Below are positions 7,988 through 57,632 of a DNA stretch of 64,000 bases, piece after piece (position 1 is the first letter of the stretch; the number at the start of each line of letters is the position of its first letter). Where the stretch lies: positions 92,531,147-92,595,146 of the forward strand of contig NC_057713.1 of NCBI RefSeq assembly GCF_004010195.1, read 5' to 3'. The notes beneath the pieces were generated by a model. The model was not told the origin of the DNA. It saw only the letters and a list, made by a program, of their open reading frames with translations, and made no database searches. The translations under genes were made by a program, and so were the position numbers. The stretch comes from Chiloscyllium plagiosum. Lineage: Eukaryota.

Positions 7988-8209
7988 GGAAATGTGTTGC
8001 TGGAAAAGCGCAGCAGGTCAGGCAGCATCCAGGGAACAGGAGAATCGACGTTTCGGGCATAAGCCCTTCTTCAGGAATGAAGAAGGGCTTATGCCCGAAA
8101 CGTCGATTCTCCTGTTCCCTGGATGCTGCCTGACCTGCTGCGCTTTTCCAGCAACACATTTCCAGCTCTGATCTCCAGCATCTGCAGACCTCACTTTCTC
8201 CTCAAAGAT
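7988..8209. mobile_element. Fold-back Penelope-like element fragment (inverted pLTR arms plus 3' tail) with hammerhead motif
   Basis: Arms 7988-8073 and 8078-8163 are reverse complements around a 4-nt loop. Unpaired tail 8164-8209. 14-bp direct repeat ttatacctaagcat at 7974-7987 and 8210-8223. Related to the pLTR next to the Penelope RT at 36.3-38 kb. Confidence 0.85.
8042..8078 (-). ncRNA. Minimal type I hammerhead ribozyme motif (Penelope-type)
   Basis: Minus-strand RNA: auuc CUGAAGA a GGGC uuau GCCC GAAA CGUC gauuc. Core intact, helix II present, palindromic ACGU helix III, predicted cleavage after GUC. Helix I is weak. Confidence 0.7.
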
Positions 8210-8239
8210 TTATACCTAAGCATCCAGAGTTAATTAAAA

Positions 8240-9420
8240 AATTTATTGAACCAAAGAGGTTACAGTACAGAAGGGGGCATTGGGCCCATTGAATCTGTGT
8301 CAGCTGACTACAAGTATAATCCAGTTAGACCCACTTCTTTGGCTTTTACCTGTGGCAACATAATTTTTTTTCTCTTTTGAATTCCTTTTTAAAAGGCCTG
8401 ACTGAATCTTTCTCTAATACACCATTAGGTAGTGCATTCCAGAATACAACCACTTGATGCACTGAAAAAAAAAGTCTTTGGGATCACTAATTTTCTTGCC
8501 AATCAGCATAAGTCTGTGACTTCTGGTTCTCAACTCTTTGCAAAGGGGACAGTTATTTCTTTGCTGCTCAGTCTAGGCCCATGATTGAAGAAAGACTTGC
8601 ATTCATATTACACTTTTCATAACCACTGGATGTCTCAAAGTGTTTTACAGCCAATTAAATACTTTTGAAGTGTTGCATGATAGAAAATGCAGCCGTCAGT
8701 TTGCAGCCAGTAAGCTCATACTAACAGCAACATGTTGACAATCTTTTTGTGATTAAGGATTAAATATTGATTAGGACATTGGAGTTAAATGCCCTGATTC
8801 TTCTTCAAAATAGTGCCATAGGATATTTTATGTTGACCTGAGAGGCTAGATGGGTACTCAGTTTAACAGCTCAGGTGAGAGATGACACCTCAGATACTGC
8901 AATACTCCTTCTGCACTGAGCTGCAGAACCATCATGATTTTTGTGCTCAAGGCCTGCAATGAGACTTAAACTCACAACGCTCTGACTCAGGCGAAACATC
9001 TATTTACTTAGTCGTGGCAAACACCAATTTTGATGAGTTGAACATACTATCAAATCTCCTTTCAATTTCTTTGTTCAAACAAGCCTCAAATCCTCCTACC
9101 TACCTGCAATAAGTAAGTCCCTCATCTTGAATCATTCTCGTCAATCTTTTGTGCACCCTCTCCAAAGTCTTTACATCCTTTCTAAATTATGGTGCCCATA
9201 ATTGAACACCATACTCCAGTTGTGGCTCGGCCAATGTTTTATAAGGGATCATTTTGAGTTACTTGGTATCATACACTATACCTCTATTCAGGATGCTGTC
9301 TGCTTGCTTTTTTAACTTATCCTTTACCTGCCCTGCCAGGTTCAATGATTTGTGCTTACATATCTCTTTGGACTTTCTGTTCCATCAGCCTCTATGGAAT
9401 TGTAATCTTTATTTTATATT
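8240..9420 (-). mobile_element. Degenerate CR1 LINE 3' region, split by a Deu-domain SINE
   Basis: CR1 3'UTR (gggcattgggcccattgaatctgtg) and RT C-terminal motifs (tgcaccctctccaaag, aattgaacaccatactccagttgtgg) continue on both sides of 8588-9013. Confidence 0.65.
8588..9013 (-). mobile_element. Deu-domain SINE (SacSINE1/AmnSINE-related)
   Basis: 3' end aaagacttgcattcatattacacttttcat, Deu-like core (ttcttcaaaatagtgccataggatattttatgttgacctgagagg), tRNA-like head near 8960-9010. Confidence 0.7.
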
Positions 9421-9584
9421 TTAGTTTACATTTCCCTCTTTGCTTTGCAGATTGAATTTTTCATCTTTAAAACTGGTTCTTTTCATTTCAATAATTAAAT
9501 GGCCCTATTTCTAAAAAAGTAAGCAATACTAGGTGCAAATTTAGAACCTATCCTCATTAGCTATCCTGCTTTTTGAGAATAATA

Positions 9585-11190
9585 CCATAAGACATAGGAG
9601 TAGAAATGGACCATTAGAATCAGAGGTCTGCAGCACACATAAAGGCCCTTTGGTGCATCAAGTCTGCACCAGTCAAAAACAACCTAACTATTCTAATCCC
9701 ATTTTCCAGTACGTGGCCTTTTCTTTGTGTGCCTTGGCATTGCAAGTACACACCTAAATATTTCTTAAATGTTATGAGGGTTTCTGAGACTGCCATCCTT
9801 ACAGCCAGTGAAATTAATTTCCATCGTCCTCTGGGTGAAAAAAGTTTCTTCGCATTCTCTCTAAATCTCCTGTCTCTTATATTAGGAATAGTTAGAAATA
9901 TTAGAAATCTATGTACCCATTTATTGATCCCTCCATCAAGGGGAGATGTTATTTCCTACCTACCAAATCTTTGCTTCTTATAATTTTATCCACCAATCAA
10001 TGGCATCAAAGAACAAAGAACAAAGAAAATTTACAGCCCAGGAACAGGCCCTTCGGCCTTCCAAGCCTGAGCCAATCCAAATCCACTGTCTAAACCTATC
10101 ATCCAATTCCTAAGGATCTGTATCCCCCTGCTCCCCACCTACTCATGCATCTGTCCAGACGCACCTTAAATGAATCTACCATGTCTGCCTCTACTACCTC
10201 TGCTGGCAACACATTTCAGGCACCTACCACCCTCTGTGTAAAGTATTTGCCGCGTACATCCCCTTTAAACTTTTCACCTCTCACCTTGAAAAACCCTGAT
10301 ATGATTCATCAATTCTACTTTCAAGCCTTATCTTCATAACCCTTGATCCCCTCACTGATTAAAAATCTGTCTATCTCAACCTTAAATACACTTAACTAAC
10401 CAACCTCAACAATCCTCTGCAGCAAATAATTCCACAGATTCACTAATCTCTGAAAAAAGAAATGTCTCATTTCAGTCTTAAGTATGTGATCCCTAACTCT
10501 GAGATTTTGGCCCCTGGTCATAGATTTCTCCTGTCAAGACCTGAAGAATTTTTATGTTTCAATTTGGTCACCTCTCATTTTTCTAAAATCCAATGAATAC
10601 AAGCCCAACCTAATCGACCTCTCCTCATAAGAAAATCCTTCCATACTCAGAACAAATCTAGTGAGCCTTCTCTCGACTGCCTCCAATGTCAATATATCTT
10701 TCCTTAGATAAGGGGACCAAAACTGTTCATAGTATTCCAGCTGTGGTCTGATAAGTCTCTTGTATAGCTTTAGGAAGTCTTCCCCATTGCTATATTCCAT
10801 TTCTGTTGAAATGAAGACCAATAGTCCTTTTGCCATCCCTACTACCTGCTGAATTTGTATGTTAGCCATTTTGTGATTCACGCGTGAGAATCCCAAATCT
10901 CTCAGTGTATTGGATTTCTACAATCCTTTTCCATTTAAACAATATTCAGCTTTTATACTTCTCCTGCCAAAGTGCATAACCCCACATTTTCCCCAGTCTA
11001 TATTCCATCTGCCAAATTTCTCCCAGTCACTCAACCTGTCTATAGCCCCCTATAAACTCTGTGTCTCCTCACTATTTACTTCCCACCTACATCTGTGTCA
11101 TCCACAAATTTAACAATAGTATGTTCACTTCTGTCACCATTGTAAATAATTGTGATCTCAGCATTGAACCCTGTGGCACTCCACTCAGTC
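9585..11190 (-). mobile_element. Nested CR1 LINEs: an RT-bearing copy (9585-9615 plus about 10290-11190) containing two further CR1 3' ends (about 9620-9990 and 10008-10290)
   Basis: ORF 10552-10896 LYKRLIRPQLEYYEQFWSPYLRKDILTLEAVERRLTR; GVPQGS and KFVDDT RT motifs near 11085-11190; separate tails (cataagacatagga, aaagaacaaagaacaaagaa). Confidence 0.8.
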
Positions 11191-11394
11191 GCAAGATTCT
11201 GCCATGGGTCTTAATGTTATTGACAAGAATGATTCTTGACTTGTAGAGCTTTGGACACATGATGGAGGTGTCCAATAAGGAAGTAGGATCTGCAGTGCAG
11301 GACGTGTTTGCATTTCTTTCCCATTCTGACTCATCATTAAGACATCTGTACACAAAGCATATGATAGCTTAATAGGCAAGTCACTATTTTGATT

Positions 11395-11660
11395 GACTAA
11401 TAGCAAATCCCTCCCAATCTTTAATGCCAGTCTCTGGTATTCTGGCCAAAATGTATCCCTCATTCAACATGATTTAAAAAACAAACAGATTATCTGGTCA
11501 TTATTACATTTCAGTTTTTGGGAGCTTGCTATGTGCAAATTGGTTATGAAGTTTCCTAAAATATAATGGTGACAACACTTCACAAGTACTTCTTTAGCTG
11601 TAAGGCACTTCAAGATATCCAGTAATCCTAAACGGCACCACATAAATGCAAATCTTACTT
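11395..11660 (+). mobile_element. Deu-domain SINE 3' half
   Basis: cagattatctggtcattattacatt...gggagcttgctatgtgcaaattgg...cataaatgcaaatct matches other copies in the window. Confidence 0.6.
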
Positions 11661-12124
11661 GCTTTCTCCACACATCTTAATGGCCCATTCTGTTGCATTT
11701 TTTTTGAAGTATCATGCCATGTATTTTATTTTTATTCATATGACATGGGTGGTCTAAATGTTGTGCTGAAACATCCTGAGGAACTCAGCACATGTTGCTT
11801 GCAGCTGTTTATACCAAACAAAGCTTCATATCAATAATATGAAGTATCAGATCTTACAATTAAACAAGTATCATAATTGTTAATTTGAAATCAGATTCTA
11901 GTTTAAAGAGTTCAAAGGTAAGTATTTTTGAATTTTTTTCTAGCTAATTTAGAGATGGCATGAAATTATTTTTATATTTTATGCTAGTAGTTGTTCTGTT
12001 GGTGGTATCTTGATATAAATATTTAAGAGGATACAGGACAATTAGTCTTGTGGTGGAGTGGGTGAGCTCCCCACCTCTAAGCCAGAAGCTTCAGATTCGA
12101 GTCAAACCCAATGTTTCCATCCTA

Positions 12125-13800
12125 CATAGGGGAGTGGTAGCAGCCAGAGCCAGGTGCATGGCACCATGGTAGTTTGCCTGTACAGTAGGGTACATGGAGA
12201 GACTGGAAGAATAACAACAACAAGAGGTTCAATAGTTTTGGGAACAGATGGGCACTTTGATGGCCACAGACATGAATCCAGAATGGTGTATTGCTTTCCT
12301 GGTGCCACTGTCAAGGATGTCCCTGCTAAGCATCCAGAATTGGAAGGATGAACAACCAGCAGTCAAGGTCCACACAAGTACAAACAACATATGCTGAAAA
12401 AGGCATGTGGCCCTGCAATCACAGTTTATGGACATAGATGAGAAATGAGCAAGGAACTCCTCCAGATTAGGACCTCAAGATTACTTCTGGTACTATACAG
12501 AGTTGACTATAGATAAAGCAGATGAATATGAGTCTGGAAAGATGGTGCAGGAGGGAGGGTTCTGAATACTTTGGACATTGGGAACAGCTCTGGAGAAAAA
12601 GGAACTGACAAAGGCGGAACAGTTTGCACTGAAGCAGAGTAAGGATTGAGGTCTTTGTGTAGTGGTTTGCTAAGGTTATTGAGGTAAATTTAAATTAACA
12701 TGGCATGAGTGTGTGATCCATTAGATTATACCAGAGAGGAAAACTAAGGTGCACAAAATACTTTGGGAGATAGATACCACTAGAACCTGAAATTTTAAAG
12801 TTAATAGATGGGGTCAGAGGAAGGGTGAAAGCAACAAAGTCTAAATCAGCATTACTGTGTACTTATGTGAATACATGGATGTAGGAAATTAGATCAGTTA
12901 ATTATAGGCACAGTTATCAGGTAGAAATTCAATGTTGTGGTTATAGCAGAGATCTGGCTCAAAGAAGGATGGGATGTTGTGAAATATTCCTGGATACAAG
13001 GTGCTCAGGTGGTAAAGGAAAGGAGGAAAAGAGGGAAAGATGGCAGTATTAAGTATGGGCAGCACAGTGGTGCTGGAGGAAGAGAGATGTCAAAGAAAAA
13101 TCAAAGACAGAATCGATTTGGCTTCAATTAATGAACATAAAAGATGCAGTTACATGGCTCAATGTTGTCTATAGGTCAGAAACTAGTGGAAATGATGAAG
13201 GGGTACAAATGCACAAAGAAATTAGAGGGGTACAAAAATTCAATGGAAGATAATGGGGAACTTTAATTCTCCGAATATAGACTGGGATAGTAGCAGTAGT
13301 GTAAAGGGTAGTGAAGGACAAAGGCTCCTAGTGCGTGTTCAGGGAAATTTTCGTTAGCACTATGTTTTCAGTCCAATGAGAAAGGCGGCATTGCTAGGCC
13401 TGGAATAGGGTGGACCAAGAAGATCAAGTCTCAGTGGGAGAATATTTGGGGGACAGTGATCATTATATCATAAGATTTAAGCTAACCATGGAAAAAGACA
13501 AAAAGCAGTCTTCCACAGAGCTGAAGATGGTGCCAGAAGACTGGAAAATTGCACACATTACACTCTTGTTCAAAAAAAAAGTGAAATGTTAAGCCTAGCA
13601 ACTGCAGAAGACCCATTTTAACTTTGGTTATATGTAAAGTTCTACAAAGAATAATTTGGCACAAAATTAATATTCACATGAACAAATGGAGTGTGATTTA
13701 AAAGAAAACAGTGGATTTCTTCAGAGTAAATCATACTTAACTAACTTGCTGGAGTTCCTGAAGAAGTAGCAGAGAGGAATGGTAAGGATAATACTGTTTA
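12125..13800 (+). pseudogene. Degenerate CR1 LINE 5' region: ORF1 esterase (SGNH-like), endonuclease and RT N-terminal remnants
   Basis: SRMVYCFPGATVKDV and VHTSTNN (ORF1), VVIAEIWLKEG, IMGNFNSPNIDW and YLGDSDH (endonuclease), VPEDWKIAHITLLFKK (RT N-terminus); many disruptions. Confidence 0.8.
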
Positions 13801-14559
13801 TCAGCTGCCATGACTAAAATTAGACTTTGGAGTCCTGGTGCCTGGAACTTGAATGTGGAAATTAGACATAAAAGCATTGTCCCTTCTCAGTGCACTTTTC
13901 TATGATAGCCAGGGCACTCCTTTGTAGAGCTGAGGTACCCAGTGGATATGGTCCCTTGGCATGAAATGTCACGAACCCTTTCAGTGGGTGGCTTCTCTCT
14001 GGGACCATTAACTGTAGAGCAAACTGTGCATTAAAGGTGCATGATTGCTTTGGAACTGTTCAACTAGTCAAGATGTGTCCATTACAGTTAATTTGACCAG
14101 AAATTTCAAAAAGTGTTTTTATGAATGACAATTCTTTTCTTAGTCCAGTGTTGTTTGTAATAAAGAGCTTTATGCAATAGAACTACATTTTTTTCACCTA
14201 GCTATATAGGTACTTGTGAATACTCTATAATTTGGCATGCTAGTTGAAGGGGCATATGATAATGAGGAAGTAGGCACTAAATTGGCATGACAATGTGAGG
14301 GGCAATTGGCATGGTGTAACATAGGTGATATGATGGGCTACAAAGGATGAGCAGAGAGAATTAGGTTGCATGGCATGGGCTGAGAAGAAGTGAGGGGGTT
14401 GTGAGGGGTGAGGACTGGAGGAGAGTTTCATAATTCTTCCCTTTAGGAGAGACAAGGTATTCCTTTGGATTTGGACCCATGACACTTTTGGTGTAGATAA
14501 GGCACATTTTGTGAGTATACGGTACATTAACTTGTTGACACTGCCAAAGTTTTAAAAAA

Positions 14560-14885
14560 ATTCTTTCATGAAATTGGGCATCACTGGCAAGTCCAGCATT
14601 TGTTTCTGGGAGGCCATTGCAAAATGAAGTGAAGAGTCACCCACACTACAGTGGGTCTGGACTTACATGTCAGATGGCTGATTTCCTTCCCTGAATGAAC
14701 CAGTTGATTTTTTACAACAATCACCATTACTAAAGCGAAATGCAGTAGCTTTCAATTCCAGTTTATTGATTTAATTGAAATTTCACCAGCTATAGTGATG
14801 GATTTTGAACACACATCCCCAGAGTATTAACCTGGCCCTCTGGATTACCATTCTAGTGACATATCACTGTGCCACCTTCTCCCCC
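14560..14885 (-). mobile_element. tRNA-derived SINE of the family at 54123-54447
   Basis: gtgggtctggacttacatgtcag...atttccttccctgaa...ggattttgaacaca...ctctggatta; homologous to the 54.1 kb and 34.8 kb copies. Confidence 0.6.
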
Positions 14886-16596
14886 TACTGTCAAATAACT
14901 GTTCAAGAATACGTAGAACTTTAAAGAAAGAAAATGTTATGCATTCCAGAGTACCTGTCGACATAAAATCATTATGGGGTTTGTACTACATGATTGACTT
15001 CCTAAACTGCCATTTTACGATGCAATACCTATCAAGTGAGCATTTTGATTGGCAGCTTCAATTGTGCGTTGATCAGACATTTTTGTTTATGCAAGGAATT
15101 AGTTAAAGTAATTTCAATGTTTTGAAGTTATCTTGTCACCAAAGGGAGAGTTTTTTTCCAAAAATCTGCACATCTCCTGAGCTTTGCCAATGGTGGCTGC
15201 TTGGAAATGAGATGATGAGGGTGGTGGGTAGGGAGGTGCGTGTTGGAATGAGGTAATAAGGGGTCATGAAGATGGCTGGACACATAGAATGACGCAGGGG
15301 TAATGGTGGGACCATGGGGATAGGTTTAGAGTTGACTGGATGAGGACTAGGGAGTGAATGGAGTGGGGGTGGTGGTGGGGAGAAAGACGGATGCTTATTT
15401 TTACACTTTGACCACAATGCTACAGCTTCAAATCAGGCTTTCCTCCCAGGCTGTGTGGGGACCTGCAGCCTCTAAGGTTCTTCTCAGATCGCCCAGCCCA
15501 ACTCCAAATCCAGCTTAGCCACTCTACCCCCTGACTAAATCGCATAGGTGGCTATTTTTAAGGGTCAGTTCTGTGAAGCTGGGATTTCTCCCACCTCTAC
15601 ACACCTGACCAAGGAACAAAGACTGGGGCCAGTATCGTACAACAGGCTTGAGAGTTGCTTTCCCTGTTAATTTTCCTGACATTGTTGGGACTTTACAAGG
15701 TCTGTAGACTGAATAGCTTCCCCCTGTGCTGTAACAATGCTGCAATGATTCTGCACCATGATGGCCAAGGAAGGCACATTCATCAGCTTGTAAACATTTC
15801 TTACAAAAAGCAATGATAGACAGTAAGATTTGGGGAGATTCCAGGCAGCCATGCGATAAGAGTAAAGTTGGAGCATCCCCAAACACTGACCATAGTTCCA
15901 GAATACACCATGCACGTACAAGTACTTGTTGCCACAGCAACTTGGTCTTCCTGAATGAAATGCAATACAGGAATGATTTCAGTCACCAAAATCACAAGAT
16001 CTCCAACACAGATTTAGGAACAGAAGCACCACACACTAAGAGAGAGATTTGAACCCTCTCTGGTGGGAACCAGGCAATAATGGGGTTACATTAGGTATCA
16101 GTGCTGTCATTATTTTTCCCACAAGGCATCTTCTGAGCAGCCACAGTATCCCAGGATCCTGTTCAACTTTTATTGGTGCAACATGAACTGCTGATGCTAC
16201 ACTCAGTAAGAATTGGCAGTGAGACAGAAGAAACTCAAAAAGGCAGGTGTCAAAATAACTGTGGACCTGGTGGAAATAAGGCTCTTTTACAACAGTAATA
16301 TGGAGCACTGGTGAATCTCTACTTTCTTACCAACTTCCCTCAAAATTGTATCCCTGCCCCAGGATCCCTACCTCCATGCTGACCAGTGTTATACCAGTGC
16401 CAATGAGTTACAGTGGTGCACTTCTGCAGTTTCCATACCTGCTTGATGGCATGATAGTGAGACACTACCTCAAAGTGATTCAAACTTTCCACTAGTACAA
16501 TCAGTAACCAACCAACACACACTGTTCAATAGTTAAAATCTACCTTCATTTCCGAATCCTTTAACAGTTTACCAAGAAGGCTTGCTTTTAATGATG

Positions 16597-16822
16597 CTGG
16601 AAATGTGTTGCTGGAAAAGTGCAGCAGGTCAGGCAGCATCCAAGGAACAGGAGAATCGACGTTTCGGGCATAAGCCCTTCTTCAGGCTTATGCCCTTCCT
16701 GAAGAAGGGCTTATGCCCGAAACATCGATTCTCCTGTTCCCTGGATGCTGCTTGACCTGCTGCGCTTTTCCAGCAACACATTTCCAGCTCTGATCTCCAG
16801 CATCTGCAGACCTTACTTTCTC
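16597..16822. mobile_element. Fold-back Penelope-like fragment with hammerhead motifs in both arms
   Basis: Inverted arms about 16597-16686 and 16698-16787, tail to 16822. 16-bp direct repeat cttgcttttaatgatg at 16581-16596 and 16823-16838. Same family as 7988-8209. Confidence 0.85.
16653..16686 (-). ncRNA. Minimal hammerhead ribozyme motif
   Basis: Minus strand c CUGAAGA a GGGC uuau GCCC GAAA CGUC gauuc. The plus-strand arm has GAAACAUC instead. Confidence 0.6.
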
Positions 16823-17094
16823 CTTGCTTTTAATGATGTCATATAGAATTAGACATTAGTAGATCGGCATTAATTCCAACCTAGTTACAACCAAACAAGA
16901 ATATGAACACAAAAATTACAGATGGTTATTAATCAGAACTTGATGAATGGGATACTGATGGTTCCAAAATCAAACAATTAATATTAAACTGGTGTGAGAA
17001 GTCTATTAATTCTTAAATTGGGGATTAAGATAACCATTTTAGTACAGAATCTCAGATAATGCAGCAGGACTGAAATTCAGAAGTTCCCAGCTGT

Positions 17095-17548
17095 AACTCA
17101 GTTACTAGCATACCTATCTACGAATCACAAGCTTCTGAGTCAAGACCCAATCCAGGGCTTCAGCACAAAAATCAGTGTTGACATTGACATGTAGAACTGA
17201 GGGAGTGCTGCATTGTTGGAGGTGCTGTGTTTCAATGCAACATTAAAGCGAGGCACCATTTGACTTTTTGGGTGGATGTAAACCATTCCATGGAAATTTC
17301 TTTTGAATATGATTTGGGGAATTATCACTGATATTCTGATCAATATTTATTTCTTCATTAACATCAACAATAAAACACAATTATCTGGCTATTATCACCA
17401 GTCTGTTTGCTGTAGATTTTCATGCGCAGGTTGCCTGCTGAATGTCCTACAATACAATGCTAACCACACATTAAAAAGTACTTGATTGGCCATGAAGCGC
17501 TTTGAAACATCCATGTTGTGAAAGGCTGAATGTTAATGCAAGACTTTT
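17095..17548 (+). mobile_element. Deu-domain SINE, near full length
   Basis: tRNA-like head, agaactgagggagtgctgcattgttggaggtgctg, cattaaagcgaggcaccat...ggtggatgtaaaccattccatgg, 3' end aatgcaagact. Confidence 0.7.
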
Positions 17549-17689
17549 ATTCATTTTACATGCTGGAGAATGAAGCATCCTAACAATGACAGCAAAAAGG
17601 ACATTAAGATGTGACAGATTCTCAGAGGCTAAAGTCACAACTTTTTTTTCTTTTCCTCCGAGCTTTCACTGCCAATTCACACATGAATT

Positions 17690-18789: not shown

Positions 18790-18929
18790 CCAATATCTTT
18801 TCTGTAAGCAAGCAACTTTTTGAAAAGTTATCTAAAGGATGTTCTTTATAAACATAACTATTGTCTGCATGAGAACAGAAACAGGGTATGGGAAATGGTG
18901 TCACTATTTTCTACGTCAGGATTTTGTGG

Positions 18930-20899: not shown

Positions 20900-21320
20900 T
20901 TTTATTCATTTGTGGGACTTTTATGCACTGGTTGGCTAACATTTATTGCCAGAGCCTTGAGACAGTGGTGGTGAGCTGCCTTCTTGAATCGCTGCAGTCC
21001 ATGAGCCGTAGGTAGACCCATAATGCCGTTAGGGAGGGAATTCCAAGATTCTGACCCAGCAATAGTGAAGGAATGGCAATAAATTTCCAACTCAAGATTA
21101 GAGTGGTGCTGGAAAAGCACAGCAAGTCAGGCAGCATCCGAGGAACAGGAAAATCGATGTTTCAGGCAAAAGCCCTTCATCAGGAATGAGGAAGGTGGTA
21201 GGAAAGTCAGGATGGTGACTGGCTTGGACGGGAACTTGCAGGTGGTGGTGTTCCCATTTATCTGCTGCCCTTGTTCTTCAAGTTGGAAGTGGTCATGGGT
21301 TTGGAAGGTGCGATCTGAGG
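20900..21320 (-). mobile_element. LINE 3' end (family at 55120-55845), interrupted by a Penelope pLTR arm
   Basis: ORF text AGSESWNSLPNGIMGLPTAHGLQRFKKAAHHHCLK, ending ggcaataaatgttagccaaccag. Confidence 0.7.
21096..21187 (-). mobile_element. Single-arm Penelope pLTR fragment with degenerate hammerhead
   Basis: Minus strand attcCTGATGAaGGGCttttGCCTGAAAcatcgattttcc...; homologous to the arms at 36.4 kb and 44.2 kb. Confidence 0.75.
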
Positions 21321-35175: not shown

Positions 35176-36346
35176 CCACACCCTGCAAAAAATGCTGTTC
35201 TCCTCTCAACAAGAAAGTCTGATTAGAAAACCTTTTGCATTATCTGGATTTTTGTATTTGCAGTTGGGACCAAAAATGCATCAAGGTTAGAGAGAAAACA
35301 TCAGCATTCAGGCCGATAGTGTAGGTTACTGCAAATATATCATTTTGTAGCATAATACAATGAAGATTTAGGGATTTAGTTTTACTCATGTTCTTAACTC
35401 TAATCTTGAGGTGTTTGCGGAGCATGAGATGATGACAGTAGTTGTCAGGGATGTCACTAAGGTCCTGCCAACCAGTCGTCCCATGGAGATGTGGAAACAT
35501 TATCAAAGTAAAATTCCCCTTTGAATTCATAAGCTACTTAGATATTCCTTAAAACCTATAGCTGACTAAAAAAAATTTGATTGCCAGTCTTAATATTTCC
35601 TTATGTGACTTACTGTCAAACTTTGCTTGGTAATTCTCTGGCAAAGTGCCTTGGGATGATATATTAATGCAAATGCTGTTGTTGCACTTTGTTTACAAAG
35701 TTTTAAAAATATTTTTCCTTTAAAATGTGGCTCAGGTGATACTGGCTAGGGGAGCTATTGCAGCAAATTCCTCTCCCTACTCAAGGAAGGTAATACAGAT
35801 GGAAGTTGGACAAGGTTACGATCAGGATGACTCCCATATAGTTTGATGAGTCAGAACAAAAATTCTTCACTGCTGCTAATCTCAAGGACTCTCTGTTGGA
35901 TCAGAACTTCAAGATTAAATTTTAAACAAAGCATTGTAGTGGAGCATAGGATGGGTTAATCTTAACTGCAGGGTTGATGTTGTAACTTAAGATAACTGAG
36001 CCAAGCCACTGAACTGTAGGCTGGCCACTGCACACAAACTCACTGAATTCTTGTTGCATAGTCAGGACCAATGAGTCTCCCCTAAAAGAAGTCAGCTAGA
36101 AATACCAGTAAAACCATAAAATCCGACACAAAACTATCCATCAAACTCAACTTGGCTTTAAATTTTAAAAATTACAATATTACTGAAAAACTGTGTGTTA
36201 CACTGTTGTCCACATTCTCATTAGTGAAAACTAAAGAAATTGCCTTTCAAATTTTGTAAGTAAAATTGTCTTATTGCTGCATCTGAAATTGAGCTGGTTC
36301 ACTGATCCTACATTGGTAGTACCTGGGCTAAATTAAAGGGAATTAT

Positions 36347-36640
36347 GGATTAGTGGTGGTGGAAGAGCACAGCAGTTCAGGCAGCATCCAAGGAGCTTCA
36401 AAATCGACATTTCGGGCAAAAGCCCTTCATCAGGAATAAAGGCAGTGAGCTTGAAGCGTGGAGAGATAAGCTAGAGGAGGGTGGGGGGGGGAGAAAGTAG
36501 CATAGATCCCCACCCCCACCCTCCTCTAGCTTATCTCTCCACGCTTCAAGCTCACTGCCTTTATTCCTGATGAAGGGCTTTTGCCCGAAATGTCGATTTT
36601 GAAGCTCCTTGGATGCTGCCTGAACTGCTGTGCTCTTCCA
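36347..36640. mobile_element. Penelope pLTR fold-back with perfect 128-nt arms, abutting an assembly gap
   Basis: 36360-36487 is the exact reverse complement of 36513-36640; each arm carries CUGAUGA a GGGC uuuu GCCC GAAA UGUC. Confidence 0.75.
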
Positions 36641-37079
36641 NNNNNNNNNNNNNNNNNNNNNNNNNNNNNNNNNNNNNNNNNNNNNNNNNNNNNNNNNNNN
36701 NNNNNNNNNNNNNNNNNNNNNNNNNNNNNNNNNNNNNNNNNNNNNNNNNNNNNNNNNNNNNNNNNNNNNNNNNNNNNNNNNNNNNNNNNNNNNNNNNNNN
36801 NNNNNNNNNNNNNNNNNNNNNNNNNNNNNNNNNNNNNNNNNNNNNNNNNNNNNNNNNNNNNNNNNNNNNNNNNNNNNNNNNNNNNNNNNNNNNNNNNNNN
36901 NNNNNNNNNNNNNNNNNNNNNNNNNNNNNNNNNNNNNNNNNNNNNNNNNNNNNNNNNNNNNNNNNNNNNNNNNNNNNNNNNNNNNNNNNNNNNNNNNNNN
37001 NNNNNNNNNNNNNNNNNNNNNNNNNNNNNNNNNNNNNNNNNNNNNNNNNNNNNNNNNNNNNNNNNNNNNNNNNNNNNNN
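36641..37079. other. Assembly gap (N run)
   Basis: 439 Ns; ORFs spanning it are artefactual. Confidence 0.99.
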
Positions 37080-43935: not shown

Positions 43936-44150
43936 ACTCATCAGTCGGATGAGCCAGATACTTGGAATGCAAAGCTCCATAATACACACCAAGTCCTGTA
44001 ATGGAAAAACGGCAAGCCATTTGTTGAGAGATTAAGCGTACCTCACAGGGACCTGTACAGAAATAATTTCTAGAAACTGACATTGTCTGGGATGAGGTAC
44101 AGTCGCCAGACAAAAGCAGGATGGAGTGAATGTGGCTAAATTCACTCTAG

Positions 44151-44372
44151 ATTCTGGATTAGTGGTGCTGGAAAAGCACAGCAGTTCAGGCAGCATCCGA
44201 GGAGCAGTAAAACCGACATTTCGGGCAAAAGCCCATCACCTGTATTCCTGATGAAGGGCTTTTGCCCGAAATGTCGATTTTATTGCTCCTTGGATGCTGC
44301 CTGCACTGCTGTGCTTTTCCAGCACCACTAATCCAGAATCTGGCTTCCAGCATCTGCAGTCATTGTTTTTAC
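44151..44372. mobile_element. Fold-back Penelope-like fragment with hammerhead motif
   Basis: Inverted arms about 44151-44234 and 44256-44339; plus-strand CUGAUGA a GGGC uuuu GCCC GAAA UGUC at about 44248-44275; tail to 44372; 15-bp direct repeat ctaaattcactctag at 44136-44150 and 44373-44387. Confidence 0.85.
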
Positions 44373-44506
44373 CTAAATTCACTCTAGGCCTCAAATTCTC
44401 AATCTGCCCAGCACCACCTCCACAGGGTCCTGGCACTAAGTGGCCTGACAGGTTGGACTCCTACAAGATGGTCAAGGGCCTAATGTGCTTTTCAGGTCCA
44501 AACTGG

Positions 44507-44508
<2 letters not shown>

Positions 44509-44544
<36 letters not shown>

Positions 44545-44560
44545 GTATATTATTTCCNNN
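44509..44560. repeat. Poly-G run next to a 3-N gap
   Basis: About 35 G, then NNN, with a locally repeated tgtatattatttc; likely low-quality assembly. Confidence 0.7.
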
Positions 44561-50100: not shown

Positions 50101-50409
50101 ACTTCTAAAAATATCACACCGCAAAGTGTGACACTTCAGAAGCATCACCTCAAAAGTGTCACGAATTTGAAAGGCTCAAATTAACCATTATCTGTTAAGC
50201 TGCCAATCAAATAGTTGATTATCCAATTGTGAATGGATCAAAGGCAGGAGTGTTCACTCAGCAGATCAGACAAAAGACCTAATGAGGAAAGAGTAACCAG
50301 CATTAAATGGGCAATCAAACTGCTTAGGATTCTCTTTCAAAGTTATCATTCACAAGTCAACAAGTATCATGAAACTGAAGAAACACATTTGTTAGAAAGA
50401 AAACGAATG

Positions 50410-51700
50410 GAAACATGGAACAGTACAGCAGAAAAGAAAAGCATTAAGCACAGGAGAGCTGTCCAACTCAACCCACTCCCTTGTTCTCACCCCCATGACC
50501 CTGTAAAAGTTTCCTTTCTAACATTTGTCAAATGCCCTTTTGATTAATAATCAATCTGCTTCAAACACTCTAAGGCAGTGATTTCCCAGATCACAACTTA
50601 TTGAATAAAAACTTCTCTCTCTCTTCTGGCTTCCTTCACTTATTCTAAGTCAGTGTCCTTTAGTATCAAGTTTTTTACCATTGTAAGCAGTTGCAACTTA
50701 GTTATGATGAGGAGATGCCGGAGTTGGACTCAGCGGACAAGATCAAAAATCAGACAACACCAGTCTATAGTCAAACAGGTTTATTTGCAACTTAATTACT
50801 TTCACATAACTCTTCTAGATCTGAACAATTCAACTGAATCTCTCTTTTGCCTTTTCTGCTTTAAGGAGACAATCACAGTTTCTTAAGTCTCCCCACAGAA
50901 TGGTTACCAATTAAGTAAATCCCCTCACTACACTCTCTAAAGCCTTTAAATTCCATTTCAAAGTGTGGTTACTTCCAAAATATGGGATACAATACTTCAG
51001 ATGGGATCTAACCAGTGTTTGATAACTTCATAACTTCCTTGTTTTTATACTGTATGTTGCTATTTATAAAATCATGAATCCTATATGCCTTTGTTCAAAT
51101 GGATGGATATGGGCCGGGTGCTGGCAGGTGGGACTAGATTGGGTTGGGATATCTGGTCGGCATGATGGATTGGACCGAAGGGTTTGTTTCCATGCTGTAC
51201 ATCTCTATGATTCTAATTGTCTACATGCATGTTCAGATCATGCACCTCCTTTGAAATTGCACCAATTCACTTATATTTCTTCTATTCAATCTTCCCACTA
51301 AAAGCAATCACCTCAACCTCCCTCGTATTACATTTCATCTGGCATGTTGTCCACCCATGTCATCAGTCTATCTTTGCTCTCCTAAAGTCTGTTACTATTT
51401 TTCCCCTCATTGTTCCATGTTCGTTGCAAACTTTGAATTATGCCCTAGTCCAGTTTATTTAGAGACTTTCCTCCAGTCTAGGAAACAAATATTCACCACT
51501 ACTCTCTGCTTTCTGTCCCTTAGCCAATTGCATATTTGCACAGCCACTGACTACTCCTTGAATCTCAGGCTTCAATTTTGCTAATTAGTCTATTATGTGG
51601 TATTTATCAAACACCTTTTGAAAGCTAATAGATACAACATCAAAAGCACTACCTTTAGCCACTTTCTGCCATGATATCAAAATAGTTCAATCCTGCACTC
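50410..51700 (-). mobile_element. Degenerate CR1 LINE, with a Penelope tail fragment (about 50705-50790) and a plus-strand HER1 tail (about 51100-51215) inserted
   Basis: CR1 3'UTR at 50410-50600 and RT motifs (atcaaacaccttttgaaagctaatagatacaacatc); the inserts match 57540-57630 and 43020-43130 respectively. Confidence 0.55.
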
Positions 51701-52454
51701 TTTTTGTGTACAAGATGAGATATTTGTAAATTTAACATTTCAAGGGGAACATATTTTAACAGTGTGAATTACATCACTAAACTTAATTTTAAACCCAGGG
51801 AAGGGACTGTAGAAATCTCCAAACATTTCTTTTTACTCAATGCAATCCAGTCATTATGCTTAGGAGCTGATATTCCATTAGGATCACAAATACCTTTAGT
51901 GAGATTGGTACAATCAGTATACCACATACTTCACTTTTTCCAGCCTGTAAAAGTTACTTTCGTTCTAAACTACACAGAATCTCTCTGTTGCTGCAAAAAA
52001 AGTTTTCAAAATAAAGTTGGGAATTTTTGCAGCTTTTCTTGCTGCATTGTGGTAAAGTGCAATGCCAGGCTATGTTTAGTCTATTAGCAGGCAATGTTTA
52101 GCCTACGAATATGGATTGTGCTTGGGGGGTCATCTACTGGGACATTGAGTTGTAACTAATGGAGATTGTGTGGAACAGAGTTAACTACCTGTGTTGTTTT
52201 TTGGCACTGCTCTGGGAAGTTATCACAGTTTGTTTCAAAACTAACCACACCAGAGGAATCTTTTAACACTCTCAAACTCCTTCCATTCATACACTTCAAC
52301 AAGACCTGTGCTACATTCAAGCTCCAACCCTTTCAACCACACAGACACAGGTGTCAGGTTTCTCCCCACAACATGAGCAACCCAGATAATAATGAATATA
52401 GATAAACAGGGACTTGATCTGGAATCATTGAATCAATACAGTGAAGAAAGAGGC

Positions 52455-52757
52455 TGTACCGACTCTCTGAAGAGCATTCCACCCAAAGCCAGCTCCCTAC
52501 CCTATCCCCGTAACCCTGCATTTCCCCTGGCTAAACCACCTAGTCTGCACAACCCTGGACACTATGGGCAATTTAGCATGGCCAATCCACCTAAACTTCG
52601 CATTTTGGACTGAAAGAGGAAACTGGAGCACTTGGCAGAAACCTATGCAGGCACAGAGAGAACATGCAAACTTCACACACGAGTCACCCAAGGCTGGAAT
52701 CGAACCCAGGTCCCTGGTGCTGAGAGAGACAGCAGTGCTAACCATTGAGCCACTGTG
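52455..52757 (-). mobile_element. HE1-type V-SINE (diverged)
   Basis: gggcaatttagcatggccaatccacctaa...gaatcgaacccaggtccctggtgctg...agtgctaacc. Confidence 0.8.
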
Positions 52758-54122
52758 CAACCCACTGGGTCCCATCAGGGTCAAAGGCCAGAATGGATGG
52801 GTGTGTACACTACCTTTACATTGGATTCCCCAGCTCCTTCCAGCCACTCCGAGGCAATTTTCAAAGAGTTGGTGTGAGTAGGGTAGGCAATCGCAGGGAT
52901 ACCCTTCTGCATGCATCAGGTAGACAATCAGGTTCTTTAAGAGCCACTTAAAAACTAACTGAAGGAAGGTGACTGGAACTCTGCAGTCAGCCTCCAGGTT
53001 CCCTCAGAGGGCTTCTTCTTGTTAGTAGCAGTGTCCCTACCTCCGGGACTGAAGATTCCAGAGTCAAATCCCACCTATCCTAAAAGCATGTCATAACACA
53101 ATCCAAGGTTGATTGGAAATATTTTATAAGGTTCTTGAGGAAGAGAGTTTCAAGTCTCACCCGTTCCAGAGCTGTGCCAATACATCAAAACAGGTTGATT
53201 TTCCCTCAGGCAGTTTAACTACGTGAAACACTGTGCTCAAAGCAAGCCTTGGGACCCTTGGTGCTAGGATTGCCTACTTACACAGGGGCATACTGAGGGA
53301 GACGTAGATGAAAGTTACAGCAGGTAAATTTCTTCACAAGCTCAATTCCTTATCTAGCTCATACTCTGCCATAACAGCCCACCTCCTTTGGCTGAACACC
53401 TGCAGTTTTAGTTCATCGATTTTTTTTTGGCTTCTCCCTGCTCTTCCTCACAACTTCCACTTTGGGGTATTTTAAATGTTTAATTTTGGTTTCCAAAGTG
53501 AGTTGTGTTCAATGTCCCAAAATTAGAAGAAAACAAATAAAACAATATTTATGCTGCACTGACTGAGTTAATAGCACATCACATTTGGAATCAGCAACAG
53601 GTCTAACTGAAATGACTCGTGTTGGAAATGTTGATATCTAACTGTATTAATCTCGTAGCTCTATTTATAGCACAAACAGCTACGTCAATTCCATTTGCAG
53701 AACTTGCAAGTGCTCAGCACATAAACAGAGTCCACTGTCTTTGAACGGTGGATTTGCCCTGGTGGCTCAGCTCAGGGGTTGTCCCTGTTGCTGAGCTCGA
53801 TGGCTGATGCCTTGCAACCTAAAACCTTGGTCACATTCACTGATCTGAGGTTTTCTCAGCACCGAGTGGCATCAACGATATCATTCTACAAATGGTTGTC
53901 TTTCCCAAGATAATGATCAGAAACAATCCCATCAATTCAAATTCAAGTTTATATTGTCAATTTATATGTCTTCTTCTAGCGATAAGTGCAAGGAAGGGTA
54001 AAAGAGAATCCTTTATCATCTTCTGGATTGTGTCTGAAAACCACTGAGAGATTGATGATGAATCTGATCGAATCCTGGCCCTTGAAGGAGGCTGAAAACC
54101 CAATCCATGGCAGTAGCTTCCA

Positions 54123-54447
54123 AGGGGAGACAATGTTATAGTGGTATTATCACTGGACTGTTAACCCAGGTAATGTTCTAGGGACCTGGCTTTGAAGCCT
54201 GGCAGGGCAGACACAGAATATGAACTCAATAAAATTCTGGAATTAAGAATCTGATCGTGACCACAAACTGATTATCATAAAAACAACCCAATCTTGTCCA
54301 CTAATGTCCTTTAGGGAAAGAAACTGCCATCCTTTACTTGTCTGGTCTACATGTCACTCCAGGCCCACAGCAATGTGGTTGACTCTTAACTGCCCTCTGA
54401 GATTGGCAATAAATGTTGGCCCAGCCAGCGATGACGTTATCTCGTGA
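54123..54447 (+). mobile_element. tRNA-derived SINE with a LINE-like 3' tail
   Basis: Head tgttatagtggtattatcactggact...ggacctggctttgaagcc, body ctaatgtcctttagggaaagaaactgcc...ctacatgtcactccaggcccacagcaatgtgg, tail ggcaataaatgttggcccagccagcgatg. Confidence 0.7.
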
Positions 54448-55119
54448 TAGCCAATGACTGACCACACCCTATAACACTGCTCCCCAAATCCTCAACCCTT
54501 AAGGTCGACTGACTGCAAAATGCCAATTTTTTAACATTAAATTTTAAATGTTTGGAGAGAAGTTGCCTCTACCTTGTAAACCTATCTTCTTGCTAACCTT
54601 CCAGTGCATCTTATAGCTGCTTTCAAACTGGAATGCCAGTGATCAGACCTGCAGCCTCAAACCCTGCCAGCATCCTTAAATTGACAACGAGACTGTCCTC
54701 CTGCTATTGGACCAGCCATCCTGAAGAAAAGCACAAGTGTTACTGTTTCCTACAAACACAATGGAGCTTGAAGGAATCGATCCTTTACACAATAATTCTT
54801 TCAGAGGAAGTCAATTGACTAAGAGATTCAGATCATACGGCAAAGAAAAGCAGCCTACAAATATACTGATGTCATGCCCAACTTACAGACACTCAAAAAT
54901 CCATCAGGTTGGCATCAGGGCTTTGTGTGGGTGCACGTTTCATGCGGAATTATGAGCATCCCAAGCAGATGGTAGGCCCTGTACATTTGGATGTGTGTCT
55001 ATTTTGAGATTTCTGTCCACAGTTAGGCAGTCTTGAATATATGATAGGATAAGAGTCTATATCTGACCTGATCGGTGGTTGTTAAAAGGACCCTGGAGGC
55101 TGCTTATAAAAGCCAAGTG

Positions 55120-55845
55120 ATACTTGCATTACACAAGTGCCAGGAAATGAACATCTACAATGACAGAAAATCTAACCATTTTCTTTGACATTCAAAGGCA
55201 TCACCATTGCTGAAATCTCTACTGTTATGATCCCGGAGTTACAATTGATCAAAAATTTAAATGGACCAGCCATGTAAATACTGTGGCTACAAGAACAGGT
55301 CAGAAACTGGGAATCCTGCAGTGACTAACTCACCCTTGACACCCCAGTACTTGTCCTTTATCTGTAAGGTGCAAGGCATCATGCCTGGATGAGTGTTGCT
55401 CCATCAATACTCCAGACACTTGACACCATCCAAGACGAAGCAGCCCAGTTAATTGGCATTCCATCTATGTTCATTATTGACCTGATGCAAATTGCAGCAG
55501 TGTGTACCATCCATAAGATCCACTGCAGCAACATCAAAGGTTCTTTAACAGCACTGTTCAAATCCACAACCTGTGTTACTTAGAAGGACAAGGGCAACAA
55601 TGCATGGGAAAAATATTGCAATTTCCTATCCAAGTCCTTCATAATCCTGACTTGAATCCATACCACCGTTCCCTTGTTGTCACTGGCTCAAAATCCTGAA
55701 GTTCTTTTTCTAACAGCGCTGTAGGTGCTCCTTCACCAGGTGGAGTGAAATGGTTCAGTGCAGCTGCTCACCACCACCACCTTGATGGAAATTAAAGATG
55801 AATAATAAAAACTGGTCTTGCCAGTGACGCTTACATGCAAAGAAT
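55120..55845 (+). mobile_element. Degenerate LINE 3' region (CR1/L2 group, clade uncertain)
   Basis: AWMSVAPSILQTLDTIQDEAAQLIG, AAVCTIHKIHCSN and GSKS*SSFSN motifs; ends gctcaccaccaccaccttg...aataaaactggtcttgccagtgacgc. Confidence 0.7.
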
Positions 55846-56764
55846 TAATTAAAGAAGATATGTTTTAAAACTCCACCCATCTCTGGCAGAGTCCCAGTGA
55901 CTACTGTCAGATATCTCTAGATGTCCCCTTACCCTCTCAATAGCTTCCACAAAACCAACATAATCAAAGATTTACATTATGGTCATTCCAGACAACACAG
56001 TAACTCAAAATGTGCATCTGCTTTCCTGATAAATGGTTGGGACCACATTGTGAACATCAACAGCTCTGGTCTGACTTTACATAAGACCCAATGTTGAATT
56101 TTGTATCGGCATTTCCAGTGCAGTGTTAACATTGGCCCCTGTACCCTATCAGCATTAGGGTGGTAAAAACAGCTGGCCTGCACTGTCCAGCTCTAACCCC
56201 AAAGACATGGAAGGCCATGCTTTTGAGGATTTGAAGTTGTCATATAAAAATTCTGGGGGTGTATAAACATCAACATAAAAGACTATTTTAAAACATAGTT
56301 TAAATATGTCATTCTGAAACATTATATTTTAAGGTCTTTTAAAACATACCCTCTTTTGTACTTTAGAAAATTCAGTTATTACAAAAAATACATTTAAATT
56401 CTTTTAAGGCAATTTGAATGAATTCATTGATATTCAGTTGAGCAATTTCATTAATACATTCTGTTAATTGGGCATTTTTGATGTTCTTTGTGATTTTTCA
56501 TTGGTAATTTATATGTTATTTCTCAATATTTTGATTTGTGCATCCTTATCACTTCAGTTTTGGATATTACTTCAAACCTGTCTTGAATGTATGAGCTTTA
56601 TAAATTATTTTAGAGGATGTGGGCACCACTGACATAAAGGGATACAATGAAAACATACAACAGTTCTATGGGCCAGGATGAATTAAAAATCTGTGCAAGA
56701 GCTGCTGCTAATTACACACTTTTACGTTGTTGTGGTTCTGTTCGCCGAGCTGGGAGTTTGTGTT

Positions 56765-56804
56765 GCAGACGTTTCATCCCCTGTCTAGGTGACATCCTCA
56801 GTGC
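56765..56804 (-). ncRNA. Minimal hammerhead motif, opposite-strand twin of 57182-57221
   Basis: Minus strand GCA CUGAGGA uGUCaCCUagacAGGgGAU GAAA CGUC UGC (G-U instead of G-C at the base of helix II). Confidence 0.68.
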
Positions 56805-57181
56805 TTGGGAGCCTCCTGTGAAGCGCTTTTGTGATGTTTCCTCCGGCATTTATAGTGGTTTGAATCTGCCGCTTCCGGTTGTTAGTTCCAGCTGTCCGTT
56901 ACAGTGGTCGGTATATTGGGTCCAGGTCGATGTGCTTATTGAGTGAATCTGTGGATGAGTGCCATGCCTCTAGGAAATCCCTGGAGTGTTGTCCTAGTCG
57001 AATTCAGAGAACAGCCAGGGAATTCCTAGAGGCATGGCACTCATCCACAGATTCACTCAATAAGCACATCGACCTGGACCCAATATCCCGACCACTGCAA
57101 CGGACAGCTGGAACTGACAACCGGAAGCGGCAGATTCAAACCACTACAAATGCCAGAGGAAACATCACAGAAGGCTCCCAA

Positions 57182-57221
57182 GCACTGAGGATGTCACCTA
57201 GACAGGGGACGAAACGTCTGC
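57182..57221 (+). ncRNA. Minimal type I hammerhead ribozyme motif
   Basis: GCA CUGAGGA u GUC a CCU agac AGG g GAC GAAA CGUC UGC: helix I GCA/UGC, helix II, intact core, predicted cleavage after C57218. Confidence 0.78.
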
Positions 57222-57435
57222 CACACAAATTCCCAGCTCGGCGAACAGAACCACAACGAGCACCAAGCTACAAATCTTCTCACAAACCTTTATACACTTT
57301 TACCCTAAGCATTTTGAGCTAATTCTATTGTCTTCATAATATTCAACAAATATTTCTCGTCCTGCCACATAAGGCAACTGCATTTGGGAAGCCAACTTGC
57401 TTTACTTGCACTTAAAACAACGGATGTAATTAAAG

Positions 57436-57632
57436 TTAAAAATCGCACAACACCAGGTTATAGTCCAACAGGTTTAATTGGAAGCACACTAGCTTTTGGA
57501 GCGACACTCCTTCATAAGGAGCGTCGCTCCGAAAGCTAGTGTACTTCCAATTAAACCTGTTGGACTATAACCTGGTGTTGTGAGATTTTTAACTTTGTAC
57601 ACCCCAGTCCAACACCAGCATCTCTGAATCAT
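57436..57632. mobile_element. Fold-back Penelope-like fragment (third family), hammerhead truncated at the fold-back point
   Basis: Arms about 57432-57512 and 57516-57596; aGGAGC guc GCUCC GAAA GCUA gug retained but CUGAUGA lost; tail to 57632; 13-bp TSD gatgtaattaaag at 57423-57435 and 57633-57645. Confidence 0.82.

What the first reader, a model, noticed from the sequence alone, without database searches (positions are those of the whole stretch)
8068..57520. Fold-back points coincide with the 5' edge of the hammerhead catalytic core
Seen: in four palindromes the axis lies on or within about 10 nt of the CUGANGA box. The loop is ggaa at 8074-8077, at 16687-16697, at about 44235-44255, and at 57513-57515, where CUGAUGA is cut in both arms. 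The single arm at 21096-21187 also stops just past this box. The 36.5 kb and 57.0 kb elements are exceptions. Inference: reverse transcriptase stalls or switches template at the folded ribozyme, or the template or pLTR boundary is set there. Alternatively, longer palindromes collapse after insertion. I do not know of this positional bias having been described.
Basis: partly seen in the sequence, partly recalled or inferred. Interest (0 to 1): 0.72.

Follow-up and report, generated by a model that had tools for sequence, protein, structure and literature searches.

The report
Penelope fold-backs mark the transcription start
Hairpin-shaped insertions of Penelope-like jumping genes in this genome do pivot at the front edge of their small hammerhead ribozyme motif, likely because the element's capped RNA begins there and two DNA copies would run off that end and be joined head to head, and likely not because the copying enzyme stalls at the ribozyme.

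Summary
The bias is real and genome-wide. In 1.66 Mb of this genome, 70 of 107 close head-to-head pairs of two Neptune-type Penelope-like families pivot within 10 nt of CUGANGA. The per-base rate of 5' ends peaks about 12-fold at 0..-9, in single copies as well as pairs. A Poseidon-type family with its own hammerhead motif shows no peak, and target duplications argue against assembly collapse. The peak lies about 31 nt behind a TATA-like box. An extra G precedes the predicted start (3444 G vs 646 T genome-wide; 818 vs 1999 one base over), the known trace of a copied cap. One arm has the tail and the other not (101 of 107), and in 53 pairs each arm holds sequence the other lacks, which fits two separately primed cDNAs. 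RNA of one family is polyadenylated before both RT start sites, a U3-R-U5-like layout. No RNA 5' end was seen directly. Earlier scan notes saw these fold-backs in this and another genome; the few lines shown of them give no cap or promoter explanation. Verdict: known insertion type, likely new explanation.

The parts
7974..7987 (.). Left target-site duplication of the 8.1 kb element (14 nt, exact; right copy 8210-8223)
7987..8080 (-). Family A (Neptune-type) inverted tail-less arm; intact minimal hammerhead core with C3 at 8074; reaches the initiator-like TCATTCC, predicted start A(-4) at 8078
8078..8202 (+). Family A tailed arm, +1..+125; core lacks its first C; joined to the other arm through a 3-nt overlap (TGA)
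16581..16596 (.). Left target-site duplication of the 16.7 kb element (16 nt, exact; right copy 16823-16838)
16593..16685 (-). Family A inverted tail-less arm, 0..+92
16687..16695 (+). Junction filler that repeats the stem II region (+11..+19), a templated filler
   Evidence: sequence
16696..16825 (+). Family A tailed arm, about -3..+126
21092..21187 (-). Family A/B single tail-less arm, -4..+89, inside another repeat; no target duplication found by the script
36342..36640 (.). Family B (Neptune-type) pair that passed the start site: arms -74..+93 (36342-36506, minus) and -60..+77 (36507-36640, plus), then N gap 36641-37079
44136..44387 (.). Family B pair: duplication 44136-44150/44373-44387 (15 nt, exact), tail-less arm from +4 (44144-44238, minus), tailed arm from about -8 (44240-44375, plus)
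56712..57303 (.). Family C (Penelope/Poseidon-type) pair joined inside the endonuclease coding end (arms from -182 and -192); duplication 56712-56725/57290-57303; cores at 56801 (minus) and 57185 (plus). Internal control: hammerhead motif present, no pivot there
57423..57648 (.). Family D (Neptune-type, one supporting locus) pair: duplication 57423-57438/57633-57648, tail-less arm 57432-57515 (minus), tailed arm 57516-57632 (plus, from +6); ATTAAA poly(A)-signal-like hexamer at 57550-57555
62999..63174 (+). Family D single tailed copy, -61..+117, that keeps the predicted promoter (TATAAA 63020-63025) and AATAAA (63095-63100); core has a 3-nt deletion

Best explanation
These are single insertion events of Neptune-type Penelope-like retroelements whose arms stop at the front edge of the hammerhead motif, likely because that is where the element's capped RNA starts. 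Shown: 5' ends pile up at 0..-9; a TATA-like box lies 30-33 nt upstream of the predicted start in two unrelated families; an extra non-element G precedes that base; one arm ends at the short 3' site and the other carries the tail; target duplications flank the pair. Inferred mechanism: the element protein nicks both target strands; each 3' end primes cDNA at one of the two internal RT start sites (about +88 and +120-125) in the copy near the RNA's 5' end; each cDNA runs only 90-135 nt before falling off the capped end and often copies the cap as an extra C; one or both ends are trimmed and joined head to head by end-joining with microhomology or filler. The hammerhead lies there because it is the first structure of the transcript, not because it blocks RT.
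For: Peak and sharp upstream drop: A/B 89 ends in 1116 nt at risk at 0..-9, 0 of 63 arms ending in -20..-35; D 35 in 436 nt. Extra G genome-wide before A(-4) in one family A variant: C 15396 (natural), G 3444, A 1634, T 646; one base downstream G 818, T 1999; family D before A(-8): G 1055, A+T 761; background G 0.205, A and T 0.295. 0 of 30 and 0 of 12 G loci continue the natural upstream sequence. In single copies only, G is an estimated 0.55 (95% range 0.39-0.69) of non-C bases against 0.28 expected. An extra G at full-length 5' junctions reflects the mRNA cap in L1 (PMC11702581, passages). Promoter geometry: TTTATC-like at -34..-37 in 21 of 23 A/B references by script (the other 2 read CTTATC at about -36), TATAAA-like at -38/-40 in 9 of 9 D references. 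Two primings: one tail and one short arm in 101 of 107 pairs; the short arm reaches at least 5 nt further 5' in 53; the lizard element's protein cleaves and extends both strands from two internal sites, and RNA 5' truncation shortens the product (PMC11167929, main text). Same source for both arms: loop II variant identical in 13 of 15 pairs, 0.25 expected.
Against: No RNA 5' end was observed: neither lay listed a place where many molecules begin (a poly(A) single-cell library, poorly suited). The ends are not one sharp base: in A/B about 33 of 100 ends in -15..0 map upstream of -4 and many map at -3..+6, which needs scattered starts, trimming or chance alignment extension. In A/B, -4 is also the first base of hammerhead helix I, so only family D (-8) separates promoter from ribozyme, and D has no neighbouring-position control. 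Family C has TATAAA at -53 yet no peak at its predicted start (1 of 51 at -20..-35). By eye up to 10 of 20 G junctions in pairs could take the G from the partner arm (5 of 20 by the script). An RT-added C at any template end would give the same G. TTTATCT is not a canonical TATA box.
Confidence: 0.72

Rival explanations
1. RT copies a longer RNA and stalls or switches template at the folded (possibly dimeric or protein-bound) hammerhead, adding an untemplated base.
For: The peak overlaps the core's 5' edge; in A/B the -4 end coincides with helix I; the rate is already raised at +10..+1 (0.020-0.025); the lizard ribozyme is protein-assisted (PMC11167929), so monomer folding may understate the barrier.
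Against: Family C has the core motif and a flat rate of 0.003-0.004 across the core; RT would meet the structure from its 3' side (+28..+32), where there is no clear peak (A/B 4 ends at +28, D 0); the G in D lies at -9, five bases beyond its 3-bp helix I; monomer folding z +0.73, +0.80, -0.62.
Confidence: 0.1
2. One cDNA reaches the RNA end, snaps back on itself and copies itself (self-priming, as in R2 snap-backs, or on an antisense template as proposed for rotifer Penelope).
For: Overlap at the junction in 37 of 107 pairs and same-source arms; snap-backs after full-length cDNA are seen for R2 (PMC11371274, passages); self-priming was proposed for head-to-head Penelope repeats (PMC3846280, passages). 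It could make the 21 pairs where the tailed arm reaches further, and the templated fillers.
Against: In 53 of 107 pairs the tail-less arm holds 5' sequence the tailed arm lacks and the tailed arm holds the tail, so neither can be a copy of the other; the short arm ends at a fixed site in 91 of 101; the extra G is on the sense strand, which points to a sense template.
Confidence: 0.1
3. The peak is a filter: long palindromes collapse after insertion or fail to assemble from short reads, leaving arms of about 90 nt.
For: The assembly has gaps beside elements (23 of 310 A/B arms censored; the 36.5 kb element runs into one); HHR position and arm length are confounded, since all families have 73-94 nt from core to short end; such structures are known to trouble short-read assembly (PMC8557442, passage).
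Against: Even if each of 63 gaps hid two long arms, the peak stays 8-fold over the 3' side (0.0375 vs 0.0046); single copies with no palindrome end there too; family C arms of 250-330 nt are assembled with no spacer; duplications are intact; a filter would not create a position-specific G; contigs of other runs show a depth step at the same place (partly due to subfamily divergence upstream).
Confidence: 0.04
4. The palindromes are a self-propagating non-autonomous family copied from a few master hairpins.
For: Some junctions recur, such as the perfect GGAATTCC centre (listing) and the 36.5 kb junction at one other locus.
Against: Junctions are mostly different from copy to copy; the 36.5 kb junction occurs only 2 times in the genome; tail and longer 5' end assort independently.
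Confidence: 0.04

Closest known systems
Insertion unit of canonical endonuclease-bearing Penelope-like elements (Craig et al. 2021, PMC8557442; Arkhipova et al. 2013, PMC3846280)
   Same: Inverted 5'-truncated copy next to the 5' end, 30-40 bp tail on one end, target duplication, hammerhead motif and TATA/Inr-like motifs in the pseudo-LTR.
   Different: The passages read describe inverted copies of variable length and propose self-priming on an antisense template. Here about 70% of arms that reach +10 stop at one place with a cap-like G on the sense strand, in Neptune-type but not Poseidon-type families.
Poseidon of Anolis carolinensis, in vitro (Frangieh et al. 2024, PMC11167929)
   Same: Two internal RT start sites that define the tail; both target strands cut and extended; product runs to the template's 5' end; uncleaved RNA is the substrate.
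   Different: The main text does not map a transcription start, cap or poly(A) site and does not treat inverted pairs. The Poseidon-type family in this genome lacks the peak.
LINE-1 twin priming and the extra G of full-length insertions (PMC11702581)
   Same: Second target end primes a second cDNA, giving an inversion with a clean duplication; extra G from the mRNA cap at the 5' junction.
   Different: In L1 the inverted part is a different, upstream piece of the RNA and priming starts at poly(A). Here both cDNAs cover the same 90-130 nt, start at two fixed internal sites, and no copy carries poly(A) (0 of 99 D arms).
Minus-strand strong-stop DNA of retroviruses and LTR retrotransposons (recalled, not from a call)
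   Same: RT starts about 100 nt from the capped 5' end; in family D the repeat has promoter, start, poly(A) site and RT starts in the order of U3-R-U5.
   Different: Primed by nicked genomic DNA rather than tRNA and integrated directly; strand transfer is not shown here.

Membership tests
Canonical EN+ Penelope-like element | C-terminal GIY-YIG endonuclease upstream of the terminal repeat | tested here: met
   Family B: Pfam GIY-YIG E 3.8e-05, above cut-off; family C: E 0.015, below cut-off but motif visible; family D: tblastn E 1.5e-09 (L159) and 7.6e-04 (L092) upstream of long copies
Canonical EN+ Penelope-like element | Telomerase-related reverse transcriptase in the same ORF | not tested
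   No full-length copy was fetched; references reach at most 900 nt upstream
Canonical EN+ Penelope-like element | Inverted 5'-truncated copy with a 30-40 bp tail on one end only | tested here: met
   101 of 107 close A/B and D pairs have one tailed and one short arm
Canonical EN+ Penelope-like element | Target-site duplication | tested here: met
   73 of 111 pairs, mostly 12-16 nt; 0 of 150 mismatched-flank controls; 5 of 7 window elements tested
Canonical EN+ Penelope-like element | Partial tandem: terminal repeat followed by element body | tested here: inconclusive
   Only 2 of 25 family B tail ends (L038, L058) continue into shared body sequence, 142 nt at 96%; none at independent loci for A, C or D
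Minimal hammerhead of metazoan PLEs (PMC4209133) | CUGANGA and GAAA boxes, one base between 9 and 10.1, G10.1-C11.1 pair, palindromic 15.2-16.2, short helix I | tested here: met
   Core pattern found in 8 of 13 window arms, several with a mutation in the palindrome or helix; family cores
Minimal hammerhead of metazoan PLEs (PMC4209133) | Self-cleavage | not testable with these tools
   RNA depth on a family D copy shows no drop across the cut site; no clear pile of 5' ends at the cut site
Neptune clade | [quoted passage not shown] | tested here: met
   Families A and B show the Cys motif; family D in one degenerate locus, L159; family C lacks it in 7 of 7 loci. No phylogeny was built
LTR retroelement-type replication | U3-R-U5 order of promoter, start, poly(A) site and RT start | tested here: inconclusive
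   Family D: poly(A) at +55/+58 in RNA (391 and 694 reads), signal in 61 of 76 arms, start inferred only. Signal absent from 215 of 235 A/B arms and 64 of 64 C arms
LTR retroelement-type replication | First-strand transfer of the strong-stop cDNA | not testable with these tools
   Needs an in vitro or marked-element assay

The most novel reading that the evidence does not exclude
Neptune-type Penelope-like elements replicate through a retrovirus-like strong-stop step: their terminal repeat is a true U3-R-U5 unit with the hammerhead in R, the polyadenylated mRNA keeps the RT start sites only at its 5' end, target-primed RT first makes a cDNA of about 100 nt to the cap, and longer copies arise only when that cDNA jumps to the 3' R. 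The many mini-palindromes are failed jumps, and the pseudo-LTR is regenerated by strand transfer.
Probability: 0.3. Interest if true: 0.85.

Novelty: new variant of a known kind. Interest (0 to 1): 0.62.

Why it matters
[quoted passage not shown] If the reading holds, thousands of genomic copies act as a fossil 5' RACE: they give the start base, show a capped sense RNA as template (against the antisense self-priming proposal), and show a clade difference in where RT begins. It gives base-exact predictions for the existing in vitro system and raises a link between target-primed and LTR-type replication in relatives of telomerase.

Tried and rejected
Rfam scan: only hairpin-driven miRNA matches below gathering score, no hammerhead family; uninformative. 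DNA search of the own genome with the family A arm: no match because common words are skipped. Pile of 5' ends at the ribozyme cut site: not clear (A/B 4 ends at +28 and 4 at +30, 0-4 per base nearby; D 0-1). Five apparent family C ends at -2 were older relatives with no matching upstream reference and were dropped with the identity filter. Prediction that family C peaks near -22: failed. Splice acceptor at -5 as the source of the G: rejected, the natural bases are TC and upstream sequences are unrelated. Cap-base errors in copies that pass the start, a possible trace of strand transfer: 0 of 30 and 0 of 12. RNA starts: the look-up of sequencing runs listed no RNA holder on record; raw-read lays listed no pile of starts, and run X20 laid 0 reads. 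One of the four sequences (a 17-nt stretch of L064) was a wrong coordinate and is ignored. Master-hairpin propagation of the 36.5 kb junction: 2 copies only. tRNA scan: none. Paper searches found no description of the positional bias, a cap G or a strong-stop step in these elements.
Full report
Numbering. Position 0 is the C of CUGANGA; negative numbers are upstream. Families: A and B (8.1, 16.7, 21.1, 36.5, 44.2 kb), C (57.0 kb), D (57.5, 63.0 kb). The label 'shark-type genome' comes from earlier scan notes and was not tested.

1. Observation. The four short pairs and the 57.0 kb pair have 14-16 nt target duplications; the two single arms tested have none by script. One arm of each complete pair carries an extra 3' tail.

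2. What they are. Longer copies elsewhere in the genome lead upstream into a GIY-YIG endonuclease end. A and B have the Cys motif of the Neptune clade, D shows it in one degenerate locus, C lacks it in 7 of 7 loci. Inverted truncated copy, tail and duplication are the known insertion unit of these elements (PMC8557442, passages and section 10; PMC3846280, passages). The cores fit the minimal hammerhead of PMC4209133 (parts 1-2 of 4 read).

3. Is the bias real? I fetched 160 ten-kb loci (20 adjoining the window, 140 at evenly spaced coordinates on other stretches; not random draws) and mapped every arm onto real long copies by BLAST. Ends are good to about 3-5 nt. The 20 search-selected loci L041-L060 served as references only. 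Treating N gaps and locus edges as censoring, the rate of 5' ends per base is 0.080 at 0..-9 in both A/B (310 arms, 23 censored) and D (99 arms, 2 censored), against 0.006-0.007 on the 3' side and 0.003-0.004 upstream; 0 of 63 A/B arms end in -20..-35. The peak holds for arms of at least 88% identity, without the window, and if each of 63 gaps hid two long arms. Family C (60 arms from the sample plus search loci; arms under 84% identity and 3 duplicate loci dropped) is flat at 0.003-0.004; 6 of 57 end in +10..-19 against 150 of 218 in A/B (Fisher p 6e-16). The search loci were chosen by their 0..+73 part, which cannot hide a peak at 0..-9. Duplications flank 73 of 111 close pairs and 0 of 150 controls. 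Single copies end at the same place, so the peak belongs to cDNA ends, not to palindromes.

4. Why there? The natural sequence upstream of the core looks like a core promoter: TTTATC-like at -34..-37 and TCATTCC with A at -4 in A/B; TATAAA-like at -38/-40 and CCACAAC with A at -8 in D (the TATA and initiator consensus and spacing are recalled). Exact genome-wide counts for one family A variant give, at -5, C 15396 (natural), G 3444, A 1634, T 646. One base downstream G is 818 and T 1999, a 13-fold change in G:T. In D, G 1055 against A+T 761 at -9; I had no search left for a neighbouring-position control there. None of 30 A and 12 D G loci continues the natural upstream sequence. Because the partner arm can supply a G, I classed the first 30 G, 20 T and 20 A loci: 10, 6 and 9 were single copies, giving a G share of 0.55 (0.39-0.69) against 0.28 expected. 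In L1 such a G marks the copied cap (PMC11702581, passages). Transcription starts inside the terminal repeat in Penelope and Chlamys (PMC2377424, part 1 and passages; PMC8557442, section 10).

5. How the pair forms. One arm is tailed and one short in 101 of 107 pairs; the short arm ends at a fixed site in 91 of 101; in 53 the short arm reaches at least 5 nt further upstream, so each arm has sequence the other lacks; junctions show overlap in 37, a gap of 0-1 nt in 13 and filler in 57; loop II variants agree in 13 of 15 callable pairs. This fits two RNA-templated cDNAs from the same source, primed at the two internal start sites that define the tail in the lizard element, whose protein extends both target strands (PMC11167929, parts 1-2 of 4 and passages). 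That the shark-type 3' ends are RT start sites is inferred from that paper.

6. RNA. Raw reads of run X19 (poly(A) single-cell RNA, same species label as the best DNA holders, about 2% read) laid on a family D copy are biased to one strand and show poly(A) after +55 (391 reads) and +58 (694 reads), 12-15 nt past AATAAA; the DNA contigs of X17 do not list this, and 0 of 99 D arms have a genomic A-run there. That site lies before both 3' ends (+86-88, +120). A polyadenylated D transcript would therefore keep its RT start sites only near its 5' end, which would force a short first cDNA ending at the cap. Depth does not drop across the ribozyme cut site, and 652 reads run upstream past -12 into promoter-like sequence, so these RNAs started further upstream: they may be 3' ends of full elements or host transcripts that use the signal. 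The signal is in 61 of 76 D arms, 20 of 235 A/B arms (at +60 to +89) and 0 of 64 C arms, so the layout is shown for D only. The family A lay ended at +88 and showed neither starts nor poly(A).

7. Against my reading. No RNA start was seen. Ends spread from -15 to +20. Family C has a TATA box and no peak at its predicted start, so a promoter alone does not give the peak; I infer that C uses the 3' copy of its start sites. In A/B the start coincides with helix I. About 30% of arms pass the start, which read-through RNA or strand transfer must explain; I could not tell which.

8. Novelty. The insertion type is known, and earlier scan notes recorded these fold-backs as ordinary by-products, two of them noting the pivot beside the ribozyme (only a few lines of each are shown). 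Look-ups for cap, start or poly(A) wording found none. Ten paper searches found no account of the bias, a cap G or a strong-stop step in these elements. Also seen: 10.64898/2026.07.22.740005 and PMC11371274 (passages only). I read no supplements; Fig. S2 of PMC11167929 (genomic coverage of the template) could show a similar pile. Subscription papers and repeat databases were not searchable. Verdict: observation confirmed, interpretation partly supported, new variant of a known kind, interest 0.62.

Noticed in passing
L040:9369-9427 (family D) with run X19: Family D terminal repeat is polyadenylated in RNA at +55/+58, upstream of both 3' ends of genomic copies; very many dispersed copies may act as cryptic poly(A) sites in host transcripts.
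   Followed up: partly
window 36492-36520 and L059 (G000:C33:12153748-12153768): The same junction at axis -67 occurs at exactly two loci with different flanks; independent recurrence or copying of a whole palindrome is unresolved.
   Followed up: partly
G000:C1:19034656-19034713 and other paired hits: A recurrent perfect centre GGAATTCC, where two arms ending near -4 meet through AATT with no loop.
   Followed up: no
L107:9230-9243: A pair in which both arms end at -4 with the extra G and a palindromic filler between them.
   Followed up: no
window 8190-8202 and 44360-44375: The tail ends of A and B read like branch point plus pyrimidine tract, as before a splice acceptor (by eye); an intron in the 5' region is known in other Penelope-like elements.
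   Followed up: no
L038 and L058: Two family B loci continue past the tail into 142 nt of shared body sequence, the likely 5' part of the full element.
   Followed up: partly
L192/L193 (G000:C2:102.68 Mb): Family C copies 311 nt apart share 116 nt of downstream flank at 96%, a local tandem duplication that includes host DNA.
   Followed up: no
window 3189-3259 and 3492-3562: An unrelated element with 71-nt terminal inverted repeats (99%) around 232 nt, MITE-like.
   Followed up: no
window 50712-50790 (minus) and 58979-59019 (plus): Two further short, older fragments of families D and A/B that start 3' of the core.
   Followed up: no
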